14,413 bases of DNA from a virus (taxonomy: Duplodnaviria; Heunggongvirae; Uroviricota; Caudoviricetes). Shown here piece by piece: positions 386 to 14,413 of the stretch. Below the pieces are notes generated by a model. That model saw nothing but the letters and a program-made list of their open reading frames with translations, did not search any database and was not told where the DNA came from. The DNA is taken from the IMG/VR virus record IMGVR_UViG_2663762810_000008; one strand, 5' to 3'. The position numbers and the translations under genes are program-made. Within the stretch, counting starts at the first letter, position 1, and every line of letters starts with the position of its first letter.

Positions 386-1609
386 ATGGCGCTGTCTGAT
401 GCGTGGTTGCGTTCAGTCGTTGGAAAGGAACGTGATAAGGTTTTGGTTAAATCCGATCGTGATGGTCTGTCTGTCAGAGTATCACCGAAAGGTCGCGTAG
501 TGTTTCAATATCGTTATCAATGGGCAGGGAAAGGTGAGCGTCTTGATATCGGAACTTACCCGGCAACTGGATTAAAAGAGGCCAGAGAAGAAGTTATCCG
601 TCTCCGTGGTGAACTCGAGTCAAACCGTAATCCACGATTGGTCAAGCAGGCTGAAAAACGAAAAGCTACTGAAGCCATGACGGTAGAGTCTGTGATCCGT
701 GCCTGGTATGAAGCATATTGTGTAAAAAATAAAAAGGGTTCTGAACAGATACTCCGCTCGTTTGAGCTGCACCTGTTCTCTAAAATCGGGAATATCCCTC
801 ACGATGCAGCTACATTGCATGATTGGTTAGAAGTCCTGGAGCCTCTTAGCACTAAGACTCCAGCAATAGCAGACCGATTGCTAATTAACGCAAAGCAGGC
901 CCATGTCTGGGCGTATAAGAGAAAGCTTATTGAAACTCGCCCGCTGTCGGATATCACGGGTAAAGATATGGATATCCGTAAAGGTCAGAAGAAACGGTTT
1001 CTGACACACGATGAAATTAAAATTCTTTATGCTGCGATCGATGGCTCTAGAATGGTTCCCAAATACCGGGCCTTCATTAAACTATTACTGCATTTTGGTT
1101 GCCGTAGTTCGGAGCTAATTACTGCTAGGGTGGGTGATTTTGATTTCATAAATAAGGTATGGACTGTACCACCTGAACGACATAAGACAGGGGACATAAC
1201 AGGCGAACCGCTAAAGCGGCCCATTATTGAACCGGTTGAAGAGCTTATAAAATACGTTATCTCTATGAACAACGGTTCCGATATGCTTTTTACTAAGGAA
1301 GGAAGCAGGGAGCCAGTCGGTAGGACATCATTACAGTCGCTGCCTTACAATTTAATGCAGTACGCGTGGCGGCGTTTAGGATATCAATTCCCTCATTGGT
1401 CTCTTCATGACTTGAGACGGACAGCACGAACAAATTTTTCTGATCTTACTGCGCCTCATATCGCAGAAATTATGCTTGGTCATAAGCTGCCAGGGGTATG
1501 GCAAGTTTATGATAAGAGCGATTATCTAGAAGAACAGCGTAAAGCTTACCTGGCATGGTGGAAGAGGGTTGAATCGATTGTTAATTGTACTATCTCTGAT
1601 TCAAACTGA
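386..1609 (+). CDS. Tyrosine site-specific integrase, P4-like family
   Basis: 407-aa ORF with ATG start and AGGTGA ribosome-binding site upstream. N-terminal arm-binding-type region (ALSDAWLR...YRYQWAGKGERLDIGTYP), catalytic-region motifs HDLRRT and LGH, and a C-terminal tyrosine region (VWQVYDKSDY) typical of the family. Family call from motif memory, not a search. Confidence 0.9.
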   Translation: MALSDAWLRSVVGKERDKVLVKSDRDGLSVRVSPKGRVVFQYRYQWAGKGERLDIGTYPATGLKEAREEVIRLRGELESNRNPRLVKQAEKRKATEAMTVESVIRAWYEAYCVKNKKGSEQILRSFELHLFSKIGNIPHDAATLHDWLEVLEPLSTKTPAIADRLLINAKQAHVWAYKRKLIETRPLSDITGKDMDIRKGQKKRFLTHDEIKILYAAIDGSRMVPKYRAFIKLLLHFGCRSSELITARVGDFDFINKVWTVPPERHKTGDITGEPLKRPIIEPVEELIKYVISMNNGSDMLFTKEGSREPVGRTSLQSLPYNLMQYAWRRLGYQFPHWSLHDLRRTARTNFSDLTAPHIAEIMLGHKLPGVWQVYDKSDYLEEQRKAYLAWWKRVESIVNCTISDSN

Positions 1610-1894: not shown

Positions 1895-2614
1895 ATGTCA
1901 AAGTTAAAAAATGAACCATTAGTAAGGGTATCAGAAGAAGACGGAATAGAAATAAGGAAGATCCAATATCCAGATAATACGATAGAAAGAGTTTATAAGC
2001 AGAAAGGTGTAATATTACCACGAATACCTTTAAAAGGCCGCTTTGTAGAACAATATGTGGCCTTACAGTTGCTGGATAAAGATCTTCGGAATGTTATTGG
2101 TTGGGAGAATATAATAAAAAACATTTGTAATAACATTAATAGAGAACAACACTTTATTTATCCTGATTTAGAAAAGAATCTAATATTAAAGTCTTTATTT
2201 ATATCAAAAGTTGTTACTTACGGTAAGTGTTTTACAGAGGCGAAAGGGCGTCGATTCACATTGCAGAGAAAGCATGTGCCAGAAAAATACAGAGATTTAC
2301 ATGATTCTATTATGAATGTTAGACATAACTTTGCTGCCCATAAAGGTGAATTTGAATATGATCAATGTGGCTTGGTTTTAATATTGCCGGGGACCAAGAA
2401 AAAAAGGTGCTATCATATTTTTTCAGAACTCAATCAAATAAATTATGGTAATAATGAGGAAGATGATGAACGTTTTTTTATGTTATATGATTCACTGCGT
2501 AAAGTCATTAAAGAAAAACGAGATAAATTAATTGATAAAATATACGCTGAAAAGATTCATACTCAAACAATGGAGTATTGGTTGAGCCGAACAGGAAAAG
2601 AAACAGAGATTTAA
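1895..2614 (+). CDS. Hypothetical protein, 239 aa, AT-rich orphan gene with no family recognised; candidate accessory or defence cargo
   Basis: Clean ORF with ATG start and AGAGGG 5 nt upstream. Codon usage is visibly AT-rich (Lys/Asn/Ile/Glu-rich protein) compared with the flanking integrase and early operon. No transmembrane segment, P-loop or other motif recognised; an R-x5-H match (RHNFAAH, aa 143-149) is too degenerate to call HEPN. Confidence 0.6.
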   Translation: MSKLKNEPLVRVSEEDGIEIRKIQYPDNTIERVYKQKGVILPRIPLKGRFVEQYVALQLLDKDLRNVIGWENIIKNICNNINREQHFIYPDLEKNLILKSLFISKVVTYGKCFTEAKGRRFTLQRKHVPEKYRDLHDSIMNVRHNFAAHKGEFEYDQCGLVLILPGTKKKRCYHIFSELNQINYGNNEEDDERFFMLYDSLRKVIKEKRDKLIDKIYAEKIHTQTMEYWLSRTGKETEI

Positions 2615-2810: not shown

Positions 2811-2842
2811 CGTCCGCTCTTGTTAAAGAGTGGACGCTCAGA
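2811..2842 (+). terminator. Candidate intrinsic terminator for the orphan-gene transcript
   Basis: Direct: 11-bp stem (2811-2821 with 2826-2836, loop GTTA) that is perfect in the plus-strand RNA through one G-U pair but has a C-A mismatch on the minus strand, followed by a moderately T-rich tail (GATTTGGTTTGG). Confidence 0.35.
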
Positions 2843-2896
2843 TTTGGTTTGGCATCTAATCATAGATGTGTCAGCTCACATCTAAGCTAATACATA

Positions 2897-3091
2897 TTAA
2901 TCAATCACTCCCGCAAATCTGTAAATCTTGTGTGATGCCCATTTATTTGGGCAGGATTTAATATCAGGATCTGGAAAGTCAGGCCTGTATTTCTGGCCAG
3001 TTCTCCTGTTTACGCTGTTCCAGCGAAGAACTGTCGATACTGAAACACCACAGAAATCGGCGACTTGTTTAGTTGTCATTAAGTTGTTCAT
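2897..3091 (-). CDS. Excisionase/AlpA-family helix-turn-helix DNA-binding protein
   Basis: 64-aa ORF; segment TTKQVADFCGVSVSTVLRW resembles excisionase/AlpA-type HTH proteins. Start ATG overlaps the upstream stop as TAATG (translational coupling). Confidence 0.65.
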   Translation of the reverse strand: MNNLMTTKQVADFCGVSVSTVLRWNSVNRRTGQKYRPDFPDPDIKSCPNKWASHKIYRFAGVID

Positions 3092-3711
3092 TACTTCACC
3101 TCCTGCGGCGGCTCCGGTAGCGGCATCCAGTGGGTTACTTTCGATGCCGGTTCTTCCCCATTGTCAGTAACTGCCCACCATTTGTTTCTCGAACAATCGT
3201 AATACCCTTCGAAGGTATCGTACTCAGTCCAGCCGTAAGACTTACCCCAACACCAAACATACTGTTTATCGTTCGGCATTCGCTCACTACAGCTTATCCA
3301 ACCATCCGGAGTTACCGGAGAGTTGCCCGACAGCTCGTTCAACTTGTAAGTCTGGCTTACAGGTTCGGCACCATTAAGCATGGCGGCGCGGCAGGCGTTC
3401 CAGCCTTCATCAAAGCCGACTATGCCATTATTTAAAGACGGACGAGCATCTGGCACCACCGGCACTGGCTTGGCTATATATAGCGGCTGAACATACCAGC
3501 CCTTTGATAACCAACTGTCAGCAATGTTTTTACTCCTCGTTATTGCCGGAATACCTAAGCCATTTTCTGAATGCAGCCATGCCACCGGCTCCTCTTCTAG
3601 CGATGCCAGAGCAATTTCATAAGCACGGCGCTCAATATCGTCTCGAACCTCTAGGCTGCTGATTCGTTCTTTGATTTCTTTAATCAGTTCTTTATTGGTA
3701 AATGTGGTCAT
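3091..3711 (-). CDS. DUF551-like prophage protein
   Basis: 206-aa ORF with C-terminal W-rich motif KWWAVTDNGEEP...THWMPLPEPP, remembered as characteristic of DUF551 (YfdS-like) prophage proteins. TAATG overlap with the upstream gene. Confidence 0.65.
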   Translation of the reverse strand: MTTFTNKELIKEIKERISSLEVRDDIERRAYEIALASLEEEPVAWLHSENGLGIPAITRSKNIADSWLSKGWYVQPLYIAKPVPVVPDARPSLNNGIVGFDEGWNACRAAMLNGAEPVSQTYKLNELSGNSPVTPDGWISCSERMPNDKQYVWCWGKSYGWTEYDTFEGYYDCSRNKWWAVTDNGEEPASKVTHWMPLPEPPQEVK

Positions 3712-4073
3712 TATGCTCCAGCCTCCGGCGCTTTTGGCATTACTGCCCAGTGAGTGATATTGAAGTTTTCAAGGTCCCCGACCTGAAATGTCCACTGCCA
3801 TTCTCCGGTTTCTTTTTGTCCCCAGGTGTACCAGAGAGAACGCCAGCCAATCAGCCAGCCTTCTCCGTTAGCATCAAATAACAGAACACTTTCATTTGCT
3901 GGTGGCAGTTCAGCTGACACTGGTATTATTTTGTTTTCCAGTGCCGCACATTTAGCTTCAAGCGCGTCGAATTTACGTACCAGGTACTCAGCATTTGTTT
4001 CGTTCACTTTCAGATCTCGCGGTACACATTTACCGCGAAGAAACCCTTCCATTTCGAAAACATTCATGCGCAT
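3711..4073 (-). CDS. Small DUF551-like paralog
   Basis: 120-aa ORF ending in ITHWAVMPKAPE, similar to the C-terminus of the adjacent gene. GGAG ribosome-binding site 8 nt upstream of the ATG at 4073; overlaps the upstream gene by 10 nt. Confidence 0.55.
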   Translation of the reverse strand: MRMNVFEMEGFLRGKCVPRDLKVNETNAEYLVRKFDALEAKCAALENKIIPVSAELPPANESVLLFDANGEGWLIGWRSLWYTWGQKETGEWQWTFQVGDLENFNITHWAVMPKAPEAGA

Positions 4074-4600
4074 TTGCGTAACTCCGATAACTCGTTAAAA
4101 CGTTCCATAAACATCCCGTAGGCATGGCTAGGTGCCAGTGGAATCACGTTGAACATCTCTGTTGCCGGGATGCCTTCCAGTACAGGCCAGAAAGAGCCAT
4201 CATCAAGCCCGAGATCGCGGCGTTCGGTTGCCAGCATGATAAGATCGGCATATTTCACGGGCGTACTCATAACTGGGGGTAACCCGTATTTCTCACGGAT
4301 TACGGCGTCAATTTTTTCTTCCATCCGTTTATAGTCAGGAAGAAGGCGTTTCAGTGGAGCGGGAATATCCTGGCAATACGCTTCTGTTGCATCATGCATT
4401 AACGCTTCAAAAGCAAATTCCTGCGGCACCAGCTGGCTGCAAAGCACCGCATGTTGGGCGACACTGTAGAAGTGAGAAAGATGACCGGCAAAGCGGCAGA
4501 TATTTGAAAGGGAAACCGCGATATCGTTAATCACGATGTCGTCTTTATTTATCTTGTCATAATAAAAATGCTTCCCGGAAAAAGTTTTAATAAATGACAT
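4064..4600 (-). CDS. HD-domain phosphohydrolase (YfdR-like 5'-deoxynucleotidase family)
   Basis: HD motif (ALMHDATEAY) plus upstream His (FAGHLSH). The track ORF begins at a GTG at 4627; the first ATG (4600, MSFIKTFSGKHFYYDK) has a GGAG site 6 nt upstream and is taken as the start (178 aa). Confidence 0.75.
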   Translation of the reverse strand: MSFIKTFSGKHFYYDKINKDDIVINDIAVSLSNICRFAGHLSHFYSVAQHAVLCSQLVPQEFAFEALMHDATEAYCQDIPAPLKRLLPDYKRMEEKIDAVIREKYGLPPVMSTPVKYADLIMLATERRDLGLDDGSFWPVLEGIPATEMFNVIPLAPSHAYGMFMERFNELSELRKCA

Positions 4601-4727
4601 TTTGTTCTCCACGTATATGCGCTGCACCGCGCTGAGTTTGGGTAAAAGGAAGCCCTCACCATCCGGTGATTATTGAGTTAATTACGTTTCCATAAATGCC
4701 CCCGCAGGGGCATTTGCAGTAATGAAA

Positions 4728-5345
4728 TCAGGCGGTGAAAGTACCAATAAAGGTTTCTACTTTGCTGTCTTTGAATTTCTCAACAAGCAGATCACGAAAT
4801 TCGTTAGCCATATCTTCCTGCACCGCTTCCAGCTGAATAATGCGCAGAACCAGTACAGGACGATCGCCAGTGATAATGCTGAGGCGTAATTTAAACGGAC
4901 GTTCTTTCAGACCTTCAAACGGAACGCATTTAATTTCAAATGCCACTGGCATAATGTCTTTGGTCTTCGCTTCGACAGATTCCATCAGGGAGCGTTTGCC
5001 GCTGAAGTCATTATCTTCAAAATCAGCGGTCTGGTTTGCTTCAATCGTGATTTTACGGACTGCCGCAGCTGCTTTTGTTGCCTGAATAGCGTCACCATTA
5101 GCATCAAAGCCCACAAGGTAGTCGGCCCAGTCTTCAATCCATTCTGCCAGTGACTTCTGGGAGTTACGCTCGCCGTTAACAGACAACAGGGCAGAGAACG
5201 GTGCTGTCTTTTTCAGTTTGAGAGTGGCGGTGTTATCTGCGTGACCTGGTTCATCAATAGTACCCAGGTTAAGTACACTGACGGCACGCATATTATCAGC
5301 ATCGATAAAGGTATTGTCCTGGATGAAAAAAGGACCCGGCTTCAT
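4728..5345 (-). CDS. DUF2303/YfdQ-like prophage early protein
   Basis: 205-aa ORF; resemblance to YfdQ-type proteins is from memory and uncertain. The 5' end lies antisense to the Q-homologous sequence, so the true start may be an internal Met (for example at 5291). Confidence 0.55.
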
Positions 5346-5561
5346 GGCGCGCCTGTTTATAAGATTTGTGGGCGTTGCAATGGAAACCGGTTTAGTCGTT
5401 TACCAACGACACTGGCGCGGTGTCATGTCCAGAAGCTGGTACCAGACCTGACTGATTATCAGTGGTACAAAGGATATGCAGATGTCATTGATAAACTGGT
5501 TACAAAGTGCTGGCAGGAAGAAGCATATGCTGAGGTGCAATTAAGAAAAGTGACGAGATAA
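5331..5561 (+). pseudogene. 5'-truncated lambda-type Q antiterminator remnant (C-terminal ~70 aa only)
   Basis: Translation [76 protein letters not shown] matches the remembered C-terminus of phage lambda Q (…ECGRCKGVGYSRMPASAAYRAVTMLIPNLTQPTWSRTVKPLYDALVVQCHKEESIADNILNAVTR). No in-frame start exists after the overlap with the opposite-strand gene. Confidence 0.6.
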
Positions 5562-5592
5562 ATGATTTTCGCCGAAGATGGCGACGTAATGC

Positions 5593-5621
5593 TTGCATTT
5601 TTCAAAAAATATGGATAAAAT
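5593..5621 (+). promoter_or_regulatory. Sigma-70-type promoter in the position of a late promoter pR'
   Basis: Direct: TTGCAT (5593-5598), 17-bp spacer, TAAAAT (5616-5621), about 30 bp downstream of the Q-remnant stop. Assignment as pR' is by position. Confidence 0.45.
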
Positions 5622-5666
5622 TTTTTCAACGATGGGCTTTATATACCCGACGTTAAGAAAAAGTAG

Positions 5667-5691
5667 AAAACCCGCTGATGAGCGGGTTTTT
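5667..5691. terminator. Intrinsic terminator hairpin in the position of tR', bidirectional in form
   Basis: Direct: AAAACCCGCT-GATG-AGCGGGTTTT; GC-rich stem (CCCGCT/AGCGGG) flanked by an A-run and a T-run, about 45 nt downstream of the predicted promoter. Confidence 0.6.
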
Positions 5692-5976
5692 GTGCTTTAA
5701 ATAGGGTAATAGAGATGTTGAATCTCATTCCGGGATTCATGTTTGTTTACTTATTATTTATCGGGTGACTTTGCCTGATGTTTAAAATGTTTTCTTCCAG
5801 TACTATGTCCCTAGATACAATGAGTCTGCATATTACATTATTAGCAGAGCTATTACGGTCAAAGTACAGCATAAGCTTTTAAAGCCAATCAACCAGTCAT
5901 CAAGACAGACGGGGTTATTCATGAAAACTCTCCATGTTTGATTCGATGGGGCCTGAAATTAAAGCTTTAATATAGC

Positions 5977-6189
5977 TCATGAAAGGTAAACATTGGCAGC
6001 TGAAGGGCCACGCAGACCATTTATCCGGCAAAATTCCACGCGTAATCCGGTGGTAATTTCTTCTGCATCGCGGAGATTGAGCGCTGAAACATGAAGCTGG
6101 ACATCGATACGACCATCGGATGGGGTGATAAGACCCTTGCCGCTTTTGCCGTCAAAGGTTTTGACAATTCCTGTCATTTTACGGGACAA
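5977..6189 (-). CDS. cspF: CspA-family cold-shock protein, CspF/CspH subtype
   Basis: Translation (M)[26 protein letters not shown]...[21 protein letters not shown] matches remembered CspF/CspH. The codon at 6189 is TTG, with an AAGGA site 7 nt upstream; the first in-frame ATG is at 6177. Divergent from cspB, as in Qin-type prophages. Confidence 0.8.
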
Positions 6190-6489
6190 AAAAATTCCTT
6201 AATACTGATAACTGGGCGCACTATACACACGTTCCTGAAGAAAGCTATAGTTTTTTGATGGGGTTGAAGATGGCTGGATGTCTAAAATAAACATTGCTTC
6301 ATATGTTCAACTATGCGTTAATGATTGCGTCGGTTTGAAGAACAGACGATATACGAAGTAGTTTACTAAAGCAGTTCTCATTTCAGGTGTTATTCACTTA
6401 TTCCTTCTTTGAGTCTCTCCAATTAAGTACGAAGTCGTTTCTGTTATACAAGCCATTTATGCCGAAAGGCTCAAGTTAAGGAATGTAGA

Positions 6490-6705
6490 ATGTCAAATAA
6501 AATGACTGGTTTAGTAAAATGGTTTAACGCTGATAAAGGTTTTGGCTTTATTTCTCCTGTTGATGGTAGTAAAGATGTGTTTGTGCATTTTTCTGCGATT
6601 CAGAATGATAATTTTCGAACCTTATTTGAAGGTCAAAAGGTTACCTTCTCTGTAGAGAGTGGTGCTAAAGGTCCTGCAGCAGCAAATGTCATAATTACTG
6701 ATTAA
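6490..6705 (+). CDS. cspB: Cold-shock protein CspB
   Basis: 71-aa translation [53 protein letters not shown]... carries the RNP1/RNP2 motifs of the cold-shock domain; AAGGAA ribosome-binding site and a long AT-rich 5' leader. Confidence 0.9.
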
Positions 6706-6986
6706 AATTCATAGTTTGTCTGTATACGATAACGAAGAAGGCTGATGCCTGAGTGGAGATACAGACAGAGTGGTGAATATTGGATCTCTTTAATAAATAG
6801 TAAGGAGGTCCAATACATGAAACAATGGCCAGCATATTTGGCAATAACTTAATCAGGAAAAGTATGCTAACCATTGTGGTGAAGTGCAGGTTTGCTGCAT
6901 GAATAGTTTTACAGCAGAAGCTAACTGCTGGCATAGCAAAACAAAGTGCGTAAGTGGATGACTCCCACAAAAAGTACCACAATATT

Positions 6987-7009
6987 AAACCCGCTCAGGC
7001 GGGTTTTTT
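6987..7009 (+). terminator. Intrinsic terminator downstream of cspB
   Basis: Direct: AAACCCGC-TCAG-GCGGGTTT followed by six T (7004-7009). Confidence 0.6.
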
Positions 7010-7068
7010 ATTATCTGCTTTAAATATGTTATTAAAATATAAAAAATACTTGTTACGAATAAAATCAA

Positions 7069-7239
7069 TCAAGCTACAGCTTTAAGATTTGTCTGGAATA
7101 CTTTGTTGCAATGAGGGCAGATCAAAAGGGCACCTTTTTGTACTCTTGAAAAACTGTGTTCTGACTCTTGGGTGCAGTTTGGGCAGGAACATTTAACGAG
7201 ATAATTACGGCGTGATTTTGAGTCTTTACGTTCTGACAT
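7069..7239 (-). CDS. Small zinc-ribbon protein (two CxxC pairs), 56 aa
   Basis: Translation MSERKDSKSRRNYLVKCSCPNCTQESEHSFSRVQKGALLICPHCNKVFQTNLKAVA has CPNC and CPHC pairs. AGGAAA site 6 nt upstream of the ATG at 7239; the longer track ORF (start 7290) has no ribosome-binding site. Confidence 0.45.
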   Translation of the reverse strand: MSERKDSKSRRNYLVKCSCPNCTQESEHSFSRVQKGALLICPHCNKVFQTNLKAVA

Positions 7240-7457
7240 AGGCTTTTCCTGTATAAATGGCCGTATACAGTACACTAAATATGAAAACATATCTCGTATT
7301 ATTATTTAATATATGATTTTCTTTTAAAATAATTACCCACATTTTTAATGTGTCTGTTTTTTAGCGCCGTTGAGAACAACGTTTGCTATAAAAACTAACC
7401 CATAGACTCCGATCTTTTCAAACATATTGCACCATCTGTGTACATCGGGGTGAGGAT

Positions 7458-7673
7458 ATGAAATCAATGGATAAGTTAACAACAGGTATCGCCTATGGCA
7501 CATCGGCTGGTAATGCTGGTTTCTGGGCATTGCAGTTACTCGATAAAGTAACTCCGTCACAGTGGGCTGCAATCGGTGTGCTGGGTAGTCTGGTTTTTGG
7601 CCTGCTGACGTATCTGACAAACCTTTATTTCAAGATTAAAGAAGACAGGCGTAAGGTTGCGAGAAGAGAGTAA
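7458..7673 (+). CDS. essQ: Phage 21 S-type pinholin (class II holin) with dual-start motif
   Basis: 71-aa translation [71 protein letters not shown] matches the remembered S21 pinholin; two hydrophobic segments; Met1-Lys-Ser-Met4 gives antiholin/holin dual starts; GAGGAT ribosome-binding site. Confidence 0.9.
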
Positions 7674-7677
7674 TCCA

Positions 7678-8229
7678 ATGACACAAGACTATGAACTGGT
7701 TGTGAAAGGAGTCCGCAATTTTGAGAATAAAGTGGCGGTAACTGTAGCCTTACGGGACAAAAAACGCTTTGACGGTGAAATTTTTGACCTGGACATCTCG
7801 CTGGACCGTGTTGAAGGTGCCGCGCTGGAGTTTTATGAGGCAGCAGCCAGAATGAGAATCAGACAGGTATTCCTGGATGTTGCTGCCGGGTTATGTGTAG
7901 GGGATGAGCAGTCGCCGGAAAAGCGCCCCATAATTTTAGAGGCGCAGAATGTGTGGATAACCTACAAAGGAAAGCTACCGGGAAGAATTACTGGTTCTCT
8001 GAAGACGCCACCGACGGCATTGCGGTCAGAAAAAGATGATATTGAATCGCCCATTGAAAAACTGGAGGGCAGCGTCGCTGATCTGAATAAAAAATTGTCG
8101 GTGCTGATCCCTTCTGAAGATGAAAAAAAACGCCGCGATGAGCAGTTTGCGGCGTTTTACGATTATTGCATTGAAGTTACTCGCAGGAATTTTGTGAAGA
8201 TTTTTGAGGAGGGTAAATCTCTTCAGTAA
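7678..8229 (+). CDS. Hypothetical protein between holin and endolysin (possibly YdfR/DUF1327-like, C-terminally extended)
   Basis: ATG at 7678, 4 nt after the holin stop (MTQDYELVVKGVRNFENKV...). The track start at 7657 overlaps the holin and is less likely. Resemblance to the small ydfR-type ORF of Qin-like lysis cassettes is from memory and not verified. Confidence 0.55.
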   Translation: MTQDYELVVKGVRNFENKVAVTVALRDKKRFDGEIFDLDISLDRVEGAALEFYEAAARMRIRQVFLDVAAGLCVGDEQSPEKRPIILEAQNVWITYKGKLPGRITGSLKTPPTALRSEKDDIESPIEKLEGSVADLNKKLSVLIPSEDEKKRRDEQFAAFYDYCIEVTRRNFVKIFEEGKSLQ

Positions 8230-8437
8230 GCTTAATGGCGGACGCTGCAATTAATTCAGGAAGGTCCGCAAGGTCATCTGTCAGTGGATATGATGAAAAA
8301 TCGGCGGCAGTTCTGTTAAGAAGCGCTTTAACTAATTCCTTTTCCTTCTCCGGCAACAAGTTGATTAGAGCTACGACTGCTTGCCTGAGTGCGATTAAAT
8401 CAGCAAAAGTTTGTTTTGGTAGATTTGTGTAATCCAT
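8177..8437 (-). CDS. Hypothetical protein, 86 aa, convergent with and overlapping the 3' end of the preceding ORF
   Basis: ORF MDYTNLPKQTFADLIALRQAVVALINLLPEKEKELVKALL... with a protein-like helical composition; fills an otherwise ~320-bp gap ahead of the endolysin. Start ATG at 8437 (track lists the GTG at 8443). No family recognised. Confidence 0.3.
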   Translation of the reverse strand: MDYTNLPKQTFADLIALRQAVVALINLLPEKEKELVKALLNRTAADFSSYPLTDDLADLPELIAASAIKLTEEIYPPQKSSQNSCE

Positions 8438-8550
8438 AGTCACCTCTGTGTTTATCAGATTGACATCCTCCTCCCGCCAGTGCCCATCACTGGTGAGGTA
8501 AGATTTAACATATCCGGGGATTTGAAGCCGATAAATCCTGATAAATATCC

Positions 8551-9578
<1,028 letters not shown>

Positions 9579-9941
9579 ATTAATATTAAATCGGATTATT
9601 TTTAGCGCTGAATGTGAAATTTAAATAAAAAGGACTCTTCCATGAGTCAAAATCCTTGAAATCTTAAGGGTAAGATAAAAGGTCATTAGACAGAATGACA
9701 CGTTTTATTAATAAATAAAGCTATTGTTTCATTCGTGTGTTTTTCTTTACAAAAGTAATCCTTGCTATGGTTGGTTAATCATGCGTTAATGGTGTTCTGG
9801 TTTGTTACAAAATTATCTGAAGCAGTCATTGTTATAATTTTATTATTTGTACCTCTTGAGATCTCCTTGTTGGTTTTTCTCTCTGATATTTTTTTTCGGA
9901 CCATTCTGCCCAAGGGCTAACTTCTTCAAAAGGTAATAATG

Positions 9942-10154
9942 ATGTCTAACAAAATGACTGGTTTAGTGAAATGGTTTAACCCTGAAAAAGGTTTTGGTTT
10001 CATCACGCCGAAAGATGGTAGCAAAGATGTGTTTGTCCATTTCTCAGTTATTCAGAGCAACGATTTCAAAACGTTAACTGAGAATCAGGAAGTCGAATTT
10101 GGTATTGAGAACGGACCTAAAGGCCCCGCGGCTGTTCATGTAGTGGCACTTTGA
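9942..10154 (+). CDS. cspI: Cold-shock protein CspI
   Basis: Translation [70 protein letters not shown] matches remembered CspI. Tandem ATGs at 9939 and 9942; long AT-rich 5' leader. Confidence 0.9.
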
Positions 10155-10358
10155 GGTAGAAAATATTACAAACCATATTCACTTTAGATGCCCGTGTTGC
10201 CATGGTTCTCAGTATAGAACATCATCTTTTGATGTTTCTGACAGGAATCCTTTCGGGGCAAAATGTATCTTTTGTAAATCAATGATGATTACATTTGATA
10301 ATATTTCACAATACTTAAATGTTAGCCGTCTGTCGTTAGATTTAAGAAAGTGAAAATG

Positions 10359-10381
10359 AAGGCTCCTTCGGGAGCTTTTTT
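10359..10381 (+). terminator. Intrinsic terminator downstream of cspI
   Basis: Direct: AAGGCTCC-TTCG-GGAGCTT stem with a UUCG tetraloop, followed by six T (10376-10381). Confidence 0.6.
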
Positions 10382-10425
10382 GCTTAGTGTCTAGTCGATG
10401 GATACTCACATATTACGGTAACATT

Positions 10426-10656
10426 ATGAAAAAAATAATAGTTTTTTTTAACTCTGAACCAGCAATGGTAGTGCCAGTGATGACCGGAGTTAACACCATC
10501 ATGCGTGAATATCCAAATGGCGAAACAACACACCTCACTGTAATGGCTGCAGGGTTTCCATCTCTGACCGGAGATCATAAAGTCATTTATGTAGCAGCGG
10601 ATCGACATGTAACTTCAGAAGAAATTCTGGAAGCAGCAATGAGACTCTTGAATTGA
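10426..10656 (+). CDS. Hypothetical small protein, 76 aa
   Basis: ORF MKKIIVFFNSEPAMVVPVMTGVNTIMREYPNGE... in the cspI-gnsB interval. The first ATG in frame is 10426 (track start 10387 is a GTG abutting the terminator T-run). No clear ribosome-binding site. Confidence 0.4.
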   Translation: MKKIIVFFNSEPAMVVPVMTGVNTIMREYPNGETTHLTVMAAGFPSLTGDHKVIYVAADRHVTSEEILEAAMRLLN

Positions 10657-10825
10657 TTTGATTCTAATGCATTGATAATAAATGATAATCATCTTTATCT
10701 GTTTGTGTGAAATTTAGACCGTCGTATGTTGATTATTGCGATGTTTCATCTTATCTTTTATACGTTTGCTCCATATAATTGACACTACTGTGTACCAGGA
10801 AAGTCATAACAGACTAAAAGAGGAA

Positions 10826-11002
10826 ATGATGAACATTGAAGAGTTAAAAACAAAAACAGAAGCAGATATTTCTGAATATATAACAAAAAAAATCATTGAG
10901 CTTAAGAAAAAGACCGGGAAAGAAGTTACCAGTATCCAGTTTACTGCACGGGAAAAAATGACTGGTCTTGAAAGCTATGATATCAAGATTGATTTAATCT
11001 AG
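10826..11002 (+). CDS. gnsB: GnsA/GnsB-family small protein
   Basis: 58-aa translation MMNIEELKTKTEADISEYITKKIIELKKKTGKEVTSIQFTAREKMTGLESYDIKIDLI matches the remembered GnsA/GnsB pattern. AAAAGAGGA ribosome-binding site; the longer track ORF is an upstream extension. Confidence 0.75.
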   Translation: MMNIEELKTKTEADISEYITKKIIELKKKTGKEVTSIQFTAREKMTGLESYDIKIDLI

Positions 11003-11067
11003 TATGTTTATAGTATTAGCATCAATTTCTCATCAGATGCTATTCAACAATACAAATTACCCATAAA

Positions 11068-11087
11068 CCTCGTTTTTACGGGGTTTT
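11068..11087 (+). terminator. Weak candidate terminator after the gnsB-like gene
   Basis: Direct: CCTCGT-TTTT-ACGGGG (6-bp stem including one G-U pair) followed by four T. Confidence 0.3.
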
Positions 11088-11297
11088 GTTATATTTAAAC
11101 ATTACCGAATAGATATAAATCTCGATTGTCGATGGTATTGGTTGTGTGACAATACCTAGTCTTTCCGGTATGCCTGAAGAGAATACAAACGACAGATTAT
11201 GTAAGGGAAACGCGCTGAAACTTTCACTCTTTCATGCTGAGTGATTTGACGTTATATTTTTAGCCGCAAGTGAAGAGCAAACGCATGGAGCGACAAA

Positions 11298-11504
11298 ATG
11301 CATAAAGATCAATACACTGATGCCCCCTCCCAGGAGCAGGTTCGTGTAAAAACTATGCTTAATAGCACCATTTCGATGGGTTACCCGGATGTTGTAATTG
11401 CATGTATAGAACATCAAGTATCTCTGGAAGCATTCAGGGCAATTGAGGCCGCGTTAGTAAAGCACGATAAGAATACGAAGGATTATTCCCTGGTGGTTGA
11501 CTGA
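11298..11504 (+). CDS. Hypothetical small prophage protein, 68 aa
   Basis: ORF with ATG start and GGAG site 8 nt upstream; lies just upstream of the cos/terminase region where small conserved ORFs sit in related cryptic prophages (recollection, uncertain). Confidence 0.5.
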
Positions 11505-11849
11505 TCACCATAACTGCTAACCATTCTGACCATTTCACAAGTGACAGAGTCAATATCGTATTCTGTCACTGTCAGGCTAATACAGTACTGCAATTCAACT
11601 ACAGCAATGCCTCGTATTTAGGTGAATTTACAATATCGTCCAGTTCGGATGCCGGCTGCATTTCTGAAGATAAGGCATTTCGGTTCGCGTATTTTCCCCT
11701 CATGCTCGTCAGTCCTGCGCGTAGTAAGAAACAGGACACTCACACTAATTTGTGTGGGCATGCTGTGATGTCCTTCTGAATTATCCCCACGCCATTATGT
11801 AAAGCTCTGTTTCAGATGCTCGTCACGGTTGTCAGGCTGTCGGGTCCTC

Positions 11850-12000
11850 CCTGGGGGGGGCCCTGCCACGGGGCGGGAGCGTCGCGGAAAAAGGCTAGTT
11901 TTTGCATTTTTATCGGCCACCATCATCTTTGCATCTTATTGATTATTAATGGTTGTTTGTTTTTTGTATGTCGAATTGAGTGTTTTTTGTTCGACATCGA
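11850..12000. other. cos-like DNA packaging site (putative cosN plus cosB-like inverted elements) upstream of the small terminase
   Basis: CCACGGGGCGGGAGCGTCGCGG (about 11866-11887) resembles the lambda cosN neighbourhood (ACGGGGCGGCGACCTCGCGGG, from memory). G8 run at 11853-11860. Inverted elements ATGTCGAA (11968-11975) and TTCGACAT (11990-11997) parallel the oppositely oriented R3/R2 sites of lambda cosB. Confidence 0.4.
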
Positions 12001-12056
12001 ACGCGTTTTCTTAAAGTTGTTCGCACGATGCATGTTTAAAGCTCTCCGGAGGAAAT

Positions 12057-12548
12057 ATGGATCATGAGTTGAAAAACCTGGTGCTGAATATTAATCAACT
12101 GGCGGCTTTATCTGGTCTGCACCGCCAGACTGTCGTGGCAAGACTGAAAAACATTCGTCCCGCTGGTGGACATGACAAACTCAAGCTATACCGGTTGACC
12201 GATATTCTGACTGAATTTATGGGGTTACCACCGCCGGTTGCTGAGGGCGAAATGGATCCACATGAACGCAAAGCCTGGTATCAGTCTGAACGTGAGCGTC
12301 TTAAGTTCGAACAGGAAACGGCACAACTCATTCCGGCCAGTGATGTCAGACGGGAGTTTGCCATCTGGGCAAAAGCGGTCGTGCAGGTGCTGGAGACATT
12401 ACCGGATATTCTGGAACGTGACTGCGGCCTGCAGCCTGCCGCTGTGAGCCGTGTTCAGTCCATTATTGATGATCTGCGCGATCAGATAGCCCTGCGGGTG
12501 ACCGAAGCAGGTGCGGATGATGAGGAGGAATTACAGCAGGAGGAGTAA
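12057..12548 (+). CDS. Terminase small subunit, Nu1-like
   Basis: 163-aa ORF with N-terminal HTH-like segment (LVLNINQLAALSGLHRQTVVARLKN) and acidic C-terminus; GGAGGA ribosome-binding site; stop overlaps the large-subunit start as TAATG; located just downstream of the cos-like site. Confidence 0.8.
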   Translation: MDHELKNLVLNINQLAALSGLHRQTVVARLKNIRPAGGHDKLKLYRLTDILTEFMGLPPPVAEGEMDPHERKAWYQSERERLKFEQETAQLIPASDVRREFAIWAKAVVQVLETLPDILERDCGLQPAAVSRVQSIIDDLRDQIALRVTEAGADDEEELQQEE

Positions 12549-14170
12549 TGCTGAATCAGGAAACCGCAAAGGCAGCACGAACCGATTCAGGTTATATCCT
12601 TCGCGCACCGAGACGAATGCGGGTTGCTGATGCCGTTGCTCAGTATATGCGGGTGCCCATGGGGGCCGGGAACTCAGTCCCGTGGGATCCGCTGGTGGCA
12701 CCGTATGTTATTGAGCCGATGAACTGCCTGGCCTCGCGTGAATACGACGCAGTGATATTTGTTGGCCCGGCACGAACTGGCAAGACTATCGGCCTGATTG
12801 ACGGCTGGGTGATTTACAACGTGATTTGCGATCCTGCTGATATGCTGATCATTCAGATGACGGAGGAAAAAGCCCGCGAACACTCCAAAAAACGACTTGC
12901 CAGAACGTTTCGCGTCAGCCCGGAAGTGGTCAGTCGCCTGAGTCCGAACAAAAATGACAACAACGTTTATGACAGAACATTCCTTGCTGGCAACTACCTG
13001 AAAATCGGCTGGCCGTCAGTCAATATCATGTCCTCATCAGATTATAAATGCGTGGCGCTGACGGATTATGACCGTTTTCCGGAAGATATTGATGGCGAGG
13101 GGGATGCCTTCTCTCTTGCCTCAAAACGTACCACCACATTTATGTCCAGTGGTATGACGCTGGTGGAGAGTTCCCCCGGCAGGGATGTGAAGGATGTGAA
13201 ATGGCGACGGACTTCACCGCATGAGGCTCCACCAACCACGGGGATACTGTCGCTCTATAACCGTGGCGATCGCCGTCGCTGGTACTGGCCCTGTCCACAC
13301 TGTGGTGAGTATTTTCAGCCCTGCGGCGATGTGGTTGCTGGTTTCCGTGATATTGCCGATCCCGTGCTGGCAAGTGAGGCGGCTTATATTCAGTGTCCTT
13401 CCTGTTCAGGACGGATTATGCCTGAACAAAAACGTGAGCTGAACGGACGTGGGGTCTGGTTGCGGGATGGTGAATCCATCAATGCGGATGGCAGTCGTTA
13501 TGGTGATCCCCGACGCTCACGTATTGCGTCATTCTGGATGGAGGGTCCGGCAGCTGCTTACCAGACACTCTCGCAACTCGTTTACAAACTGCTTGCTGCA
13601 GAACAGGAATACGAGACAACCGGAAGTGAAGAAACACTCAAGACGGTTATCAATACCGACTGGGGATTACCTTATCTTCCCCGTGCCAGCATGGAGCAAC
13701 GAAAAAGTGAACTGCTTGAGCAGCGGGCAGAGCCAGTTCCTTCCCGCAGTGTGCCGGATGGCGTTAATTTCCTGGTGGCGACAGTTGATGTGCAGGCGGG
13801 ACGTCATCGCCGTTTTGTGGTTCAGGTAACGGGCTATGGCAGCCGTGGCGAACGCTGGATTATTGATCGTTACAACATCACGCAGTCATTGCGCGGTGAC
13901 AGCGACGGGGAGAGCCAGCGAATTGATCCGGCCAGCTATCCGGAAGACTGGGATGTCCTGCTGACGGATGTTTTTCATAAAAGCTGGCCGCTGGCCTCCG
14001 ATCCTTCTCAACAAATGCGACTGATGGCAATGGCGGTGGACTCCGGCGGTGAAGACGGAGTCACTGATAATGCCTATAAATTCTGGCGTCGTTGCCGTCG
14101 TGATGGCCTTGGTAAACGTATTTACCTGTTTAAGGGCGACAGCATCCGGCGCGCAAAACTGATCACCCGT
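12548..14170 (+). pseudogene. Terminase large subunit (lambda gpA family), truncated after about 541 codons
   Basis: Manual translation from the ATG at 12548 shows no stop through the window end, which is why it is absent from the ORF track. Walker A (GPARTGKT), CPHCG zinc-finger-like motif, and blocks matching remembered lambda gpA (VATVDVQ...RWIIDRYNI; AVDSGGEDG...LFKGDS). The 3' boundary is approximate (plus or minus about 15 bp). Confidence 0.75.
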
Positions 14171-14413
14171 ATACGCGTGAATGAATGGTTCAGCGCGTAT
14201 GCGATGGCGGGTGTGGCTTACAGCCGTGTGTCGACTTTCTCCGGGGATTATCTCCGCGTAACTGACAACAAGGGGAAAACGCACGATGTGCTGACCGGAA
14301 GTGATGACGGTCGCCACAGCAACACGTCTCTGGCGTGGGGGGCTGGCGTGCAGTTTAACCCGACCGAATCCGTGGCCATTGATATTGCTTATGAAGGCTC
14401 CGGCAGTGGTGAC
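14171..14413 (+). pseudogene. lom: 3' fragment of a lom/ail/ompX-family outer-membrane protein gene, fused in frame to the truncated terminase; runs off the window end
   Basis: Translation VNEWFSAYAMAGVAYSRVSTFSGDYLRVTDNKGKTHDVLTGSDDGRHSNTSLAWGAGVQFNPTESVAIDIAYEGSGSGD carries the Ail/Lom/OmpX C-terminal signature (compare OmpX GAGLQFNPMENVALDFSYEQSR). No signal peptide or N-terminal strands are present. Confidence 0.7.

What the first reader, a model, noticed from the sequence alone, without database searches (positions are those of the whole stretch)
12548..14413. In-frame chimera of large terminase N-terminal region and the lom 3' half
One continuous frame from 12548 to the window end switches near 14165-14180 (...SIRRAKLITR | IRVNEWFSAY...) from terminase gpA-like sequence to Ail/Lom/OmpX-like sequence. 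A single deletion has therefore removed the terminase C-terminus, all head and tail genes and the lom 5' half. The fusion is in frame, so a terminase ATPase-Lom beta-strand chimera could be translated, though without a signal peptide it is unlikely to reach the outer membrane. The large terminase ORF is missing from the ORF track only because it has no stop in the window.
Basis: partly seen in the sequence, partly recalled or inferred. Interest (0 to 1): 0.55.

Follow-up and report, generated by a model that had tools for sequence, protein, structure and literature searches.

The report
Deletion scar fusing terminase to lom
A roughly 16.6 kb deletion in a decayed lambda-like prophage of E. coli joined the first 541 codons of the large terminase gene in frame to the last 94 codons of the outer-membrane gene lom, which is an ordinary kind of prophage-decay scar and very probably a dead gene.

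Summary
One open frame runs from 12548 to the window end. It is gpA-family large terminase up to base 14171, with a complete ATPase domain and a nuclease domain cut at profile position 186 of 294. From 14172 it is Lom, residues 106-199 of 199. The window is identical to an NCBI E. coli chromosome contig (GCA_900448675.1). There the frame ends at the native lom stop 45 nt past the window, giving a 636-aa product. That product is already deposited as "terminase large subunit" (STG44105.1, QMH82347.1). Against the intact prophage of E. coli S88, about 16.6 kb is missing: the terminase 3' end, 16 head and tail genes, and the lom 5' half. The side tail-fibre genes remain. A second deletion at 5306-5310 removed the immunity/replication region and two thirds of antiterminator Q, so the late operon probably cannot be transcribed. 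The fusion lacks a signal peptide and keeps roughly half of the 8-strand barrel. Other strains carry different deletions of the same region. K-12 DLP12 (aaaD next to tfaD) is a textbook analogue. One oddity: the junction sits at the exact centre of an 18-nt quasi-palindrome, a property of only about 1 in 10,000 possible joins. Verdict: a real and ordinary prophage-decay pseudogene fusion of low interest.

The parts
12057..12548 (+). Small terminase subunit gene (DUF1441 type), intact, 163 aa. Its stop overlaps the start of the fusion gene (TAATG).
   Evidence: Pfam DUF1441 1-146/147, E 5e-44. PHROG 141 terminase small subunit, E 3e-77. Sequence read.
12548..14171 (+). Large terminase (gpA family) fragment, codons 1-541 of 700. 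The ATPase domain is complete and the nuclease domain is cut.
   Evidence: No mismatch to the S88 terminase up to 14171. Pfam GpA_ATPase 2-247/247 and GpA_nuclease 1-186/294. PHROG 15.
14163..14180 (.). Deletion junction (between 14171 and 14172) at the centre of an 18-nt quasi-palindrome TCACcCGTA|TACGcGTGA. There is no direct microhomology.
   Evidence: breakpoints. (inverted repeat I1). (fraction 1.0e-4 of all possible terminase x lom joins).
14172..14413 (+). lom 3' fragment (Lom residues 106-186 in the window). It continues 45 nt past the window to the native stop (...GVGYKF*).
   Evidence: Pfam Ail_Lom 105-185/199, E 9e-44. DNA identity to lom genes. Stop seen in the source contig L009.
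5306..5310 (.). Second deletion junction of the same prophage, with 5-nt microhomology TAAAG. It joins the 3' part of yfdQ (minus strand) to the last third of antiterminator gene Q (ydfT).
   Evidence: BLAST blocks against S88: window 2840-5310 = L003 2138-4608 and window 5306-14171 = L003 13307-22172. The junction is absent from 5426 complete genomes and present in 4 Logan contigs.
5241..5561 (+). Residual 3' part of antiterminator Q (ydfT). Only about the last 84 of 250 codons are Q-derived.
   Evidence: Pfam Antiterm 11-87/87 on the residual ORF. S88 ydfT map. BLAST blocks.
386..1609 (+). Prophage integrase next to yjjG, marking the left end of the decayed prophage.
   Evidence: Gene calls in L009. 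Annotated equivalents in Z142-6 and GmM066.

Best explanation
This is a deletion scar in a cryptic mEp460-like lambdoid prophage integrated beside yjjG in an E. coli chromosome. One illegitimate, homology-independent deletion (or nested ones) of about 16.6 kb joined large-terminase nucleotide 1624 to lom nucleotide 314. It removed the terminase 3' end (159 codons: the last third of the nuclease domain and the C-terminal tail), 16 head and tail genes, and the first 105 codons of lom. By chance (one in three) the join is in frame, so gene callers report a 636-aa terminase. The product is very probably non-functional. As a terminase it lacks part of the nuclease fold, and the prophage no longer has a portal or prohead genes. 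As Lom it lacks the signal peptide and the first four of eight barrel strands. A second deletion removed the immunity/replication region and two thirds of Q, so the late operon that carries the fusion should not be transcribed past its terminators unless another prophage supplies a compatible Q. Shown here: the anatomy, the junction, the deleted interval, the in-frame stop, and its presence in independent assemblies. Inferred: lack of expression and of function, and a single-step origin.
For: The intact S88 prophage has the 700-aa terminase at L003 20549-22651 and lom at 38436-39035, with 16 genes between them. The window aligns to L003 up to 22172 and again from 38751. The window has no mismatch to NCBI contig UGAU01000003.1, where a 636-residue product with GpA_ATPase, GpA_nuclease and Ail_Lom is called, followed by the tail-fibre gene. 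The exact 636-aa protein is on 3 contigs from NCBI and Logan (STG44105.1, QMH82347.1), so it is not an assembly artefact. Other strains hold different deletions of the same region: EC27 (out of frame), GmM066 (in frame, 762 aa), Z142-6 and EC931. Lom 3' fragments fused to portal, tail U/Z/L/I/J, protease, lysozyme, tail fibre and terminase are common in the protein database. K-12 DLP12 aaaD is a GpA_ATPase N-terminal fragment abutting tfaD. The literature describes such defects as typical of E. coli lambdoid prophages (PMC2669165). Q is truncated. On the + strand there is no promoter-like site between 10225 and 14413, and there are terminator-like hairpins at 6987-7006 and 11065-11086.
Against: The terminase fragment carries no degenerative mutation. 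It is 100% identical to intact alleles, and its ribosome-binding site and translational coupling to an intact small subunit are preserved. A translated product therefore cannot be excluded. Lack of transcription is inferred from consensus scans and the Q truncation, not measured. The junction's centred quasi-palindrome suggests that the breakpoints were not random.
Confidence: 0.9

Rival explanations
1. Assembly artefact: the terminase-lom join is a chimeric contig, not a real chromosome structure.
For: The 30-nt junction is absent from 5426 complete RefSeq E. coli genomes, from one genome per species, and from viral and metagenome contigs. Lom is a multi-copy sequence in E. coli, with a median of 2 and up to 14 places per genome.
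Against: The exact 636-aa product is on three contigs from different sources, including 4.98 Mb and 5.05 Mb contigs and a Logan assembly. The join is not at a repeat boundary, because terminase and lom share no homology there. The neighbouring second junction is seen in four further independent Logan assemblies.
Confidence: 0.02
2. Domesticated, functional fusion: the in-frame ATPase-Lom chimera, made together with the intact small subunit, acts for example as a decoy or dominant-negative terminase that interferes with packaging by incoming mEp460-like phages.
For: The small subunit, the ATPase domain and the translational coupling are all intact. There are no mutations relative to functional alleles. 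Two of the three independent terminase-lom joins seen in genome records are in frame.
Against: Two of three in frame is expected by chance (p about 0.26). Identity to intact alleles fits a recent event as well as selection. The join is rare: 0 of 5426 complete genomes. Q is truncated and no promoter-like site lies upstream. There is no match to any PADLOC defence model. Half of a beta-barrel in the cytoplasm should promote aggregation or degradation (inference).
Confidence: 0.03
3. The present junction is the end product of two or more successive deletions rather than a single event.
For: The same prophage carries at least one other deletion. Relatives show multi-step remnants, for example Z142-6 with terminase, then L, then K fragments, then lom.
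Against: No intervening remnant is left between 14171 and 14172. One event is the most economical reading.
Confidence: 0.15

Closest known systems
aaaD-tfaD in cryptic prophage DLP12 of E. coli K-12
   Same: A 5' fragment of a gpA-family large terminase gene, just downstream of the small-subunit homologue nohD, is joined by deletion of the morphogenetic genes to a gene of the tail-fibre region. aaaD translates to GpA_ATPase profile 3-60/247.
   Different: In DLP12 only about 100 codons of terminase remain and the partner is tfaD, annotated as a pseudogene. Here 541 codons remain, the partner is lom, and the join is in frame.
Terminase-lom joins in E. coli EC27 and GmM066 (same or related prophages)
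   Same: These are independent deletions from the large terminase gene into lom, annotated by PGAP as partial pseudogenes. GmM066 sits at the same yjjG site, is also in frame (762 aa), and its lom breakpoint (nt 310) is 4 nt from the one here (nt 314).
   Different: The terminase breakpoints differ: nt 1578 in EC27, about 2007 in GmM066, and 1624 here. EC27 is out of frame and keeps lom from nt 50. The GmM066 terminase allele is only 81% identical.
Intact prophage of E. coli S88/APEC O1 and phages PhiR47_1 and mEp460
   Same: They have the same small and large terminase genes: 100% identity to S88 up to 14171, 99.5% to PhiR47_1 and 96.7% to mEp460. The late-region gene order is the same.
   Different: They keep the full 700-aa terminase, the head and tail genes and a complete lom.
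Lambda gpA terminase and lambda Lom / OmpX / Ail
   Same: The Pfam families are the same (GpA_ATPase, GpA_nuclease, Ail_Lom). Lom of this type matches the solved lambda Lom chain 9wso_C (E 7e-51) and OmpX/Ail structures.
   Different: This is neither a complete terminase nor a complete barrel. The small subunit is DUF1441 type, not Nu1. No solved structure matches this terminase by sequence.

Membership tests
gpA-family phage large terminase | Complete N-terminal packaging ATPase domain | tested here: met
   PF05876 matched 2-247 of 247, E 7e-72.
gpA-family phage large terminase | Complete C-terminal endonuclease domain and C-terminal tail | tested here: not met
   PF20454 is matched only to profile position 186 of 294. 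The fragment is 541 of the 700 residues of the intact S88 protein.
gpA-family phage large terminase | Adjacent small-subunit gene and downstream portal/head genes | tested here: inconclusive
   The small subunit is present and translationally coupled. Portal and head genes are absent from the locus.
Ail/Lom/OmpX eight-stranded outer-membrane barrel | N-terminal signal peptide | tested here: not met
   Lom residues 1-105, including MRKVCAAILSAAICLAVSGAPAWA, are deleted. The chimera starts MLNQETAKAARTDSGY..., with no hydrophobic stretch.
Ail/Lom/OmpX eight-stranded outer-membrane barrel | Full barrel (all eight strands) | tested here: not met
   Only Ail_Lom profile positions from 104 onward are present. 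In the alignment to OmpX the join falls at OmpX Y71/R72. By my recollection of structure 1QJ8 this is the end of strand 4, so strands 5-8 remain. The AlphaFold model of Lom had too low confidence to use (pLDDT 37).
Ail/Lom/OmpX eight-stranded outer-membrane barrel | C-terminal strand ending in an aromatic residue | tested here: met
   The source contig reads ...GFIVGVGYKF* 45 nt past the window.
Deletion-derived pseudogene fusion in a cryptic lambdoid prophage | Lies in a prophage at a chromosomal attachment site, and intact relatives carry the missing interval | tested here: met
   The integrase lies next to yjjG. The intact S88 prophage has 16.6 kb between the two breakpoints.
Deletion-derived pseudogene fusion in a cryptic lambdoid prophage | Novel joint between unrelated genes, reproducible in independent assemblies | tested here: met
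   There is no homology at the joint. The same product is on 3 contigs.
Deletion-derived pseudogene fusion in a cryptic lambdoid prophage | Loss of function or expression of the fused gene | not testable with these tools
   This is only inferred, from the truncated Q, the absence of promoter-like sites and the presence of intervening terminator-like hairpins, and the missing domains.

The most novel reading that the evidence does not exclude
The in-frame chimera is made together with the intact small terminase subunit. It would poison packaging of superinfecting mEp460/PhiR47_1-type phages by forming dead mixed terminase complexes: complete ATPase domain and N-terminus, no complete nuclease, no portal-binding tail. 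The decayed prophage would then act as a decoy-terminase defence.
Probability: 0.03. Interest if true: 0.6.

Novelty: new member of a known kind. Interest (0 to 1): 0.12.

Why it matters
It matters little biologically. It is one more scar of prophage decay, and the protein is already in GenBank. It has some value for annotation, because the 636-aa product is deposited as a plain "terminase large subunit" although it is a terminase-Lom fusion pseudogene. Such chimeras contaminate protein clusters: its 90% cluster is made up of terminase fragments. The window also shows how different strains have independently cut the same prophage down to different remnants. The palindromic junction, and the possible clustering of breakpoints at lom nt 296-316, could be of minor interest to people who study illegitimate recombination, if a proper survey confirmed them.

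Tried and rejected
(1) I searched for the exact 30-nt junction in complete E. coli genomes, one-per-species genomes, viral contigs and metagenome contigs. All gave zero hits. The source was found instead through the exact 205-aa ORF created by the second deletion.

(3) I tested for a rearrangement hot spot in lom. Among 38 Lom N-terminal fusion proteins, about 9 distinct events start at Lom residues 99-107. At DNA level, eight endpoints fall at lom nt 296-316, next to a weak quasi-palindrome (z -2.0). However, those eight were picked for being there. Two have an N at the join. The 90% clustering of the database may hide fusions near the 5' end. A short-query protein search returned only proteins of 81 aa or fewer. 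An unbiased sample of 113 loci had only 2-3 internal truncations, none in that stretch. The result is inconclusive.

(4) A centred palindrome is not a general property of these deletions. It was absent at nine other junctions.

(5) I tried to place cos from the start of the mEp460 record. The record simply starts at the small-subunit gene, so it gives no information.

(6) The AlphaFold2 model of Lom from a shallow alignment had pLDDT 37 and was not used.

(7) No sequence relative of this terminase has a solved structure, so catalytic residues could not be mapped.

(8) Bobay et al. 2014 (PMC4143005) is not held in the library.

Full report
**Observation**

The frame starting at the ATG at 12548 is open for 622 codons to the last base of the window. 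The mechanical ORF list lacks it only because ORFs that run off the end are not listed. Pfam splits the translation as follows:

| Pfam family | Residues | Profile positions | E-value |
|---|---|---|---|
| GpA_ATPase | 41-304 | 2-247 of 247 | 7e-72 |
| GpA_nuclease | 326-541 | 1-186 of 294 | 1.6e-52 |
| Ail_Lom | 541-622 | 104-185 of 199 | 2e-42 |

PHROGs agree: large terminase for the first part and Lom outer membrane protein for the second.

**Exact junction**

- Bases 12548-14171 have no mismatch to the intact 2103-nt (700-aa) large terminase gene of E. coli S88. From 14172 the two sequences are unrelated.
- Bases 14174-14413 equal lom nt 316-555, at 236/240 for S88 and 239/240 for EC27.
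- With lom alleles that read GTA at codon 105 (O157 type), the match starts at 14172, which is lom nt 314.
- The join is therefore CACCCGTA|TACGCGTG between 14171 and 14172. It is either flush (GTA allele) or carries a 2-nt TA filler (GTG allele). It has no direct microhomology.
- In the reading frame, the first base of codon 542 comes from terminase and the other two from lom (ATA, Ile, in place of lom Val105). The fusion is in frame, which has a one-in-three chance.

**Source and the end of the frame**

The 30-nt junction is absent from 5426 complete RefSeq E. coli genomes, from one-genome-per-species contigs, from viral contigs and from metagenome contigs. I found the source through the exact 205-aa ORF at 4728-5345 (minus strand). 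The window has no mismatch to NCBI GCA_900448675.1 contig UGAU01000003.1, a 4.98 Mb contig.

In that contig the frame continues for 14 more codons to the native Lom end ...DWRTDGFIVGVGYKF*. The product is 636 aa and is called with GpA_ATPase, GpA_nuclease and Ail_Lom. A hairpin with a T-run follows, then a 1117-aa tail-fibre gene.

The exact 636-aa sequence is on three contigs from NCBI and Logan. It is deposited as STG44105.1 ("DNA packaging protein of prophage (terminase large subunit)") and QMH82347.1 ("phage terminase large subunit family protein"). The join is therefore real, and already public, but not labelled as a chimera.

**What was deleted**

In the intact S88 prophage the terminase is at L003 20549-22651 and lom at 38436-39035. 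The window aligns to L003 up to 22172 and again from about 38749-38751. About 16.6 kb is missing:

- the last 479 nt of the terminase gene;
- 16 complete genes: DUF6148, portal, protease/capsid fusion, two head-completion genes, the tail genes through the tape measure, M, L, K, I and J;
- the first 313-315 nt of lom.

The side tail-fibre genes downstream of lom are kept, so "all tail genes" is slightly too strong. The closest viable phages for the terminase pair are PhiR47_1 (99.5%) and mEp460 (96.7%). The upstream DUF1441 gene is their small terminase subunit.

**Context: a doubly deleted cryptic prophage**

The element sits next to yjjG with its integrase at 386-1609. A second junction at 5306-5310 has 5-nt microhomology (TAAAG). 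It joins the 3' part of yfdQ on the minus strand to the last third of antiterminator gene Q (ydfT). Relative to S88 it removes about 8.7 kb, including the repressor, cro-like, replication, rusA, KilA-N and DUF968 genes. The residual Q ORF keeps only about the last 84 codons. This junction is also absent from the complete-genome set, but it is present in four independent Logan contigs.

The region between Q and the terminase genes is 100% identical to intact prophages of several strains. The deletions are therefore recent on an evolutionary scale.

**Likely function**

*As a terminase.* The fragment keeps the whole ATPase domain. It loses 108 of the 294 profile positions of the nuclease domain and all 159 C-terminal residues. 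In lambda gpA the extreme C-terminus binds the prohead (established knowledge, not tested here). The locus no longer has portal or capsid genes.

*As Lom.* The fragment lacks the signal peptide and residues 1-105. In the alignment to OmpX the join falls at OmpX Y71/R72. By my recollection of the OmpX structure this is the periplasmic end of strand 4, so only strands 5-8 remain. The AlphaFold model of Lom was too poor to use (pLDDT 37).

*Translation and transcription.* Translation signals are intact: GGAGGAG lies before the ATG, which overlaps the small subunit's stop. Transcription should depend on Q-mediated read-through of the late operon, and Q is truncated. On the + strand the scan finds no promoter-like site between 10225 and 14413, and terminator-like hairpins at 6987-7006 and 11065-11086. 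The inference is that the fusion is silent or weakly expressed, and that any product is a cytoplasmic, non-functional, probably unstable protein. No PADLOC defence model matches it.

**How ordinary it is**

Other genomes carry different deletions of the same region:

| Strain or element | Structure |
|---|---|
| EC27 | Terminase nt 1578 joined to lom nt 50, out of frame |
| GmM066 (same yjjG site) | Terminase nt about 2007 joined to lom nt 310, in frame, 762 aa |
| Z142-6 | Terminase, then L, then K fragments, then lom |
| EC931 (Qin-like) | Terminase joined to J |
| K-12 DLP12 | aaaD is a GpA_ATPase N-terminal fragment abutting tfaD |

In the protein database, Lom C-terminal fragments occur fused to terminase (at least two further joins, P0018 and P0047), portal, protease, tail U, Z, L, I and J, tail fibre and lysozyme. 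The partners are thus scattered across the late region, as expected for random deletions. The literature describes deletions and disruptions as typical of E. coli lambdoid prophages (PMC2669165).

**Two oddities**

*(a) A palindrome at the junction.* The junction lies at the exact centre of an 18-nt quasi-palindrome, TCACcCGTA|TACGcGTGA, with 8 of 9 pairs. Only 1.0e-4 of all 1.2 million possible terminase x lom joins would give arms of at least 9 nt with at most one mismatch.

With the GTA lom allele, both parental sites contain GTAC (CCGTACATT and CTGTACGCG), and the product reads GTA|TAC with TA doubled. This hints that the two sites were brought together by pairing of a 9-10-nt inverted repeat, or were cut with a 2-nt stagger and filled in. 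It is a single event, however, and nine other junctions show nothing similar. I regard the mechanism as unresolved.

*(b) Possible clustering of lom-side endpoints.* The lom-side endpoints of several independent rearrangements fall at lom nt 296-316, beside a weak hairpin. Selection and clustering biases were not removed, and the unbiased samples were too small. This is inconclusive.

**Verdict**

The feature is a real pseudogene fusion created by deletion in a decaying prophage. It belongs to a well-known kind, and the sequence is already deposited. Interest is low, at 0.12. The most novel reading that is not excluded is a translated decoy terminase that interferes with related phages, to which I give about 3%.

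Noticed in passing
window 5306-5310 (and ORFs 4728-5345 minus strand, 5241-5561 plus strand): A second internal deletion of the same prophage joins the 3' part of yfdQ (DUF2303, minus strand) to the last third of antiterminator Q through a 5-nt microhomology (TAAAG). About 8.7 kb of immunity and replication genes is missing relative to S88. It creates a new 205-aa ORF that starts in antisense Q sequence. The junction is absent from 5426 complete genomes and present in 4 Logan contigs.
   Followed up: yes
window 14163-14180: The terminase-lom junction is the exact centre of an 18-nt quasi-palindrome (8 of 9 pairs). Only about 1 in 10,000 possible terminase x lom joins would have this. Both parental sites contain GTAC, and the product reads GTA|TAC. 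Nine other deletion junctions lack such symmetry.
   Followed up: partly
lom nt 296-316 (window 14172 onward; loci L007, L014-L019): Lom-side endpoints of at least eight rearrangements with different partners fall within about 20 nt, just 5' of a weak hairpin (CGCGTGAA..TTCAgCGCG). The partners are terminase, portal, J, an IS element, tail fibre and a tandem lom copy. This may be a hot region for illegitimate recombination, but the sample is biased and two joins contain an N.
   Followed up: partly
L007 22109-24397 (E. coli GmM066): An independent terminase-lom fusion at the same yjjG prophage site is also in frame (762 aa). It is annotated by PGAP as a partial terminase plus a 137-aa 'Ail/Lom family' protein that in fact starts inside terminase-derived sequence.
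   Followed up: partly
window 6329-6768 and 9795-10200: Two full-length matches to the Rfam cspA thermoregulator (157 and 117 bits) cover the leaders of the prophage cold-shock genes cspB and cspI. Together with cspF, the remnant carries three cold-shock genes.
   Followed up: no
window 1895-2614: A 239-aa ORF between the integrase and the DUF551 gene has no match in Pfam, NCBIfam or PADLOC. It is also annotated 'hypothetical' in strain Z0117EC0005. It may be prophage cargo of unknown function.
   Followed up: partly
loci L034-L046 (genome contigs): Lambda-type lom (70% identity to the query) sits on low-coverage contigs in genomes of unrelated taxa (Pseudomonas, Shewanella, Neobacillus, Kitasatospora and others). 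Four of these contigs are about 48.4-48.5 kb long. This most likely reflects lambda DNA contamination of those assemblies.
   Followed up: no
protein cluster of P0121: The 90% cluster holding the chimera has 310 members. Every listed member other than the chimera is a 469-607 aa terminase fragment, nearly all labelled 'partial', which shows how often this gene is cut at contig ends or by deletions.
   Followed up: no
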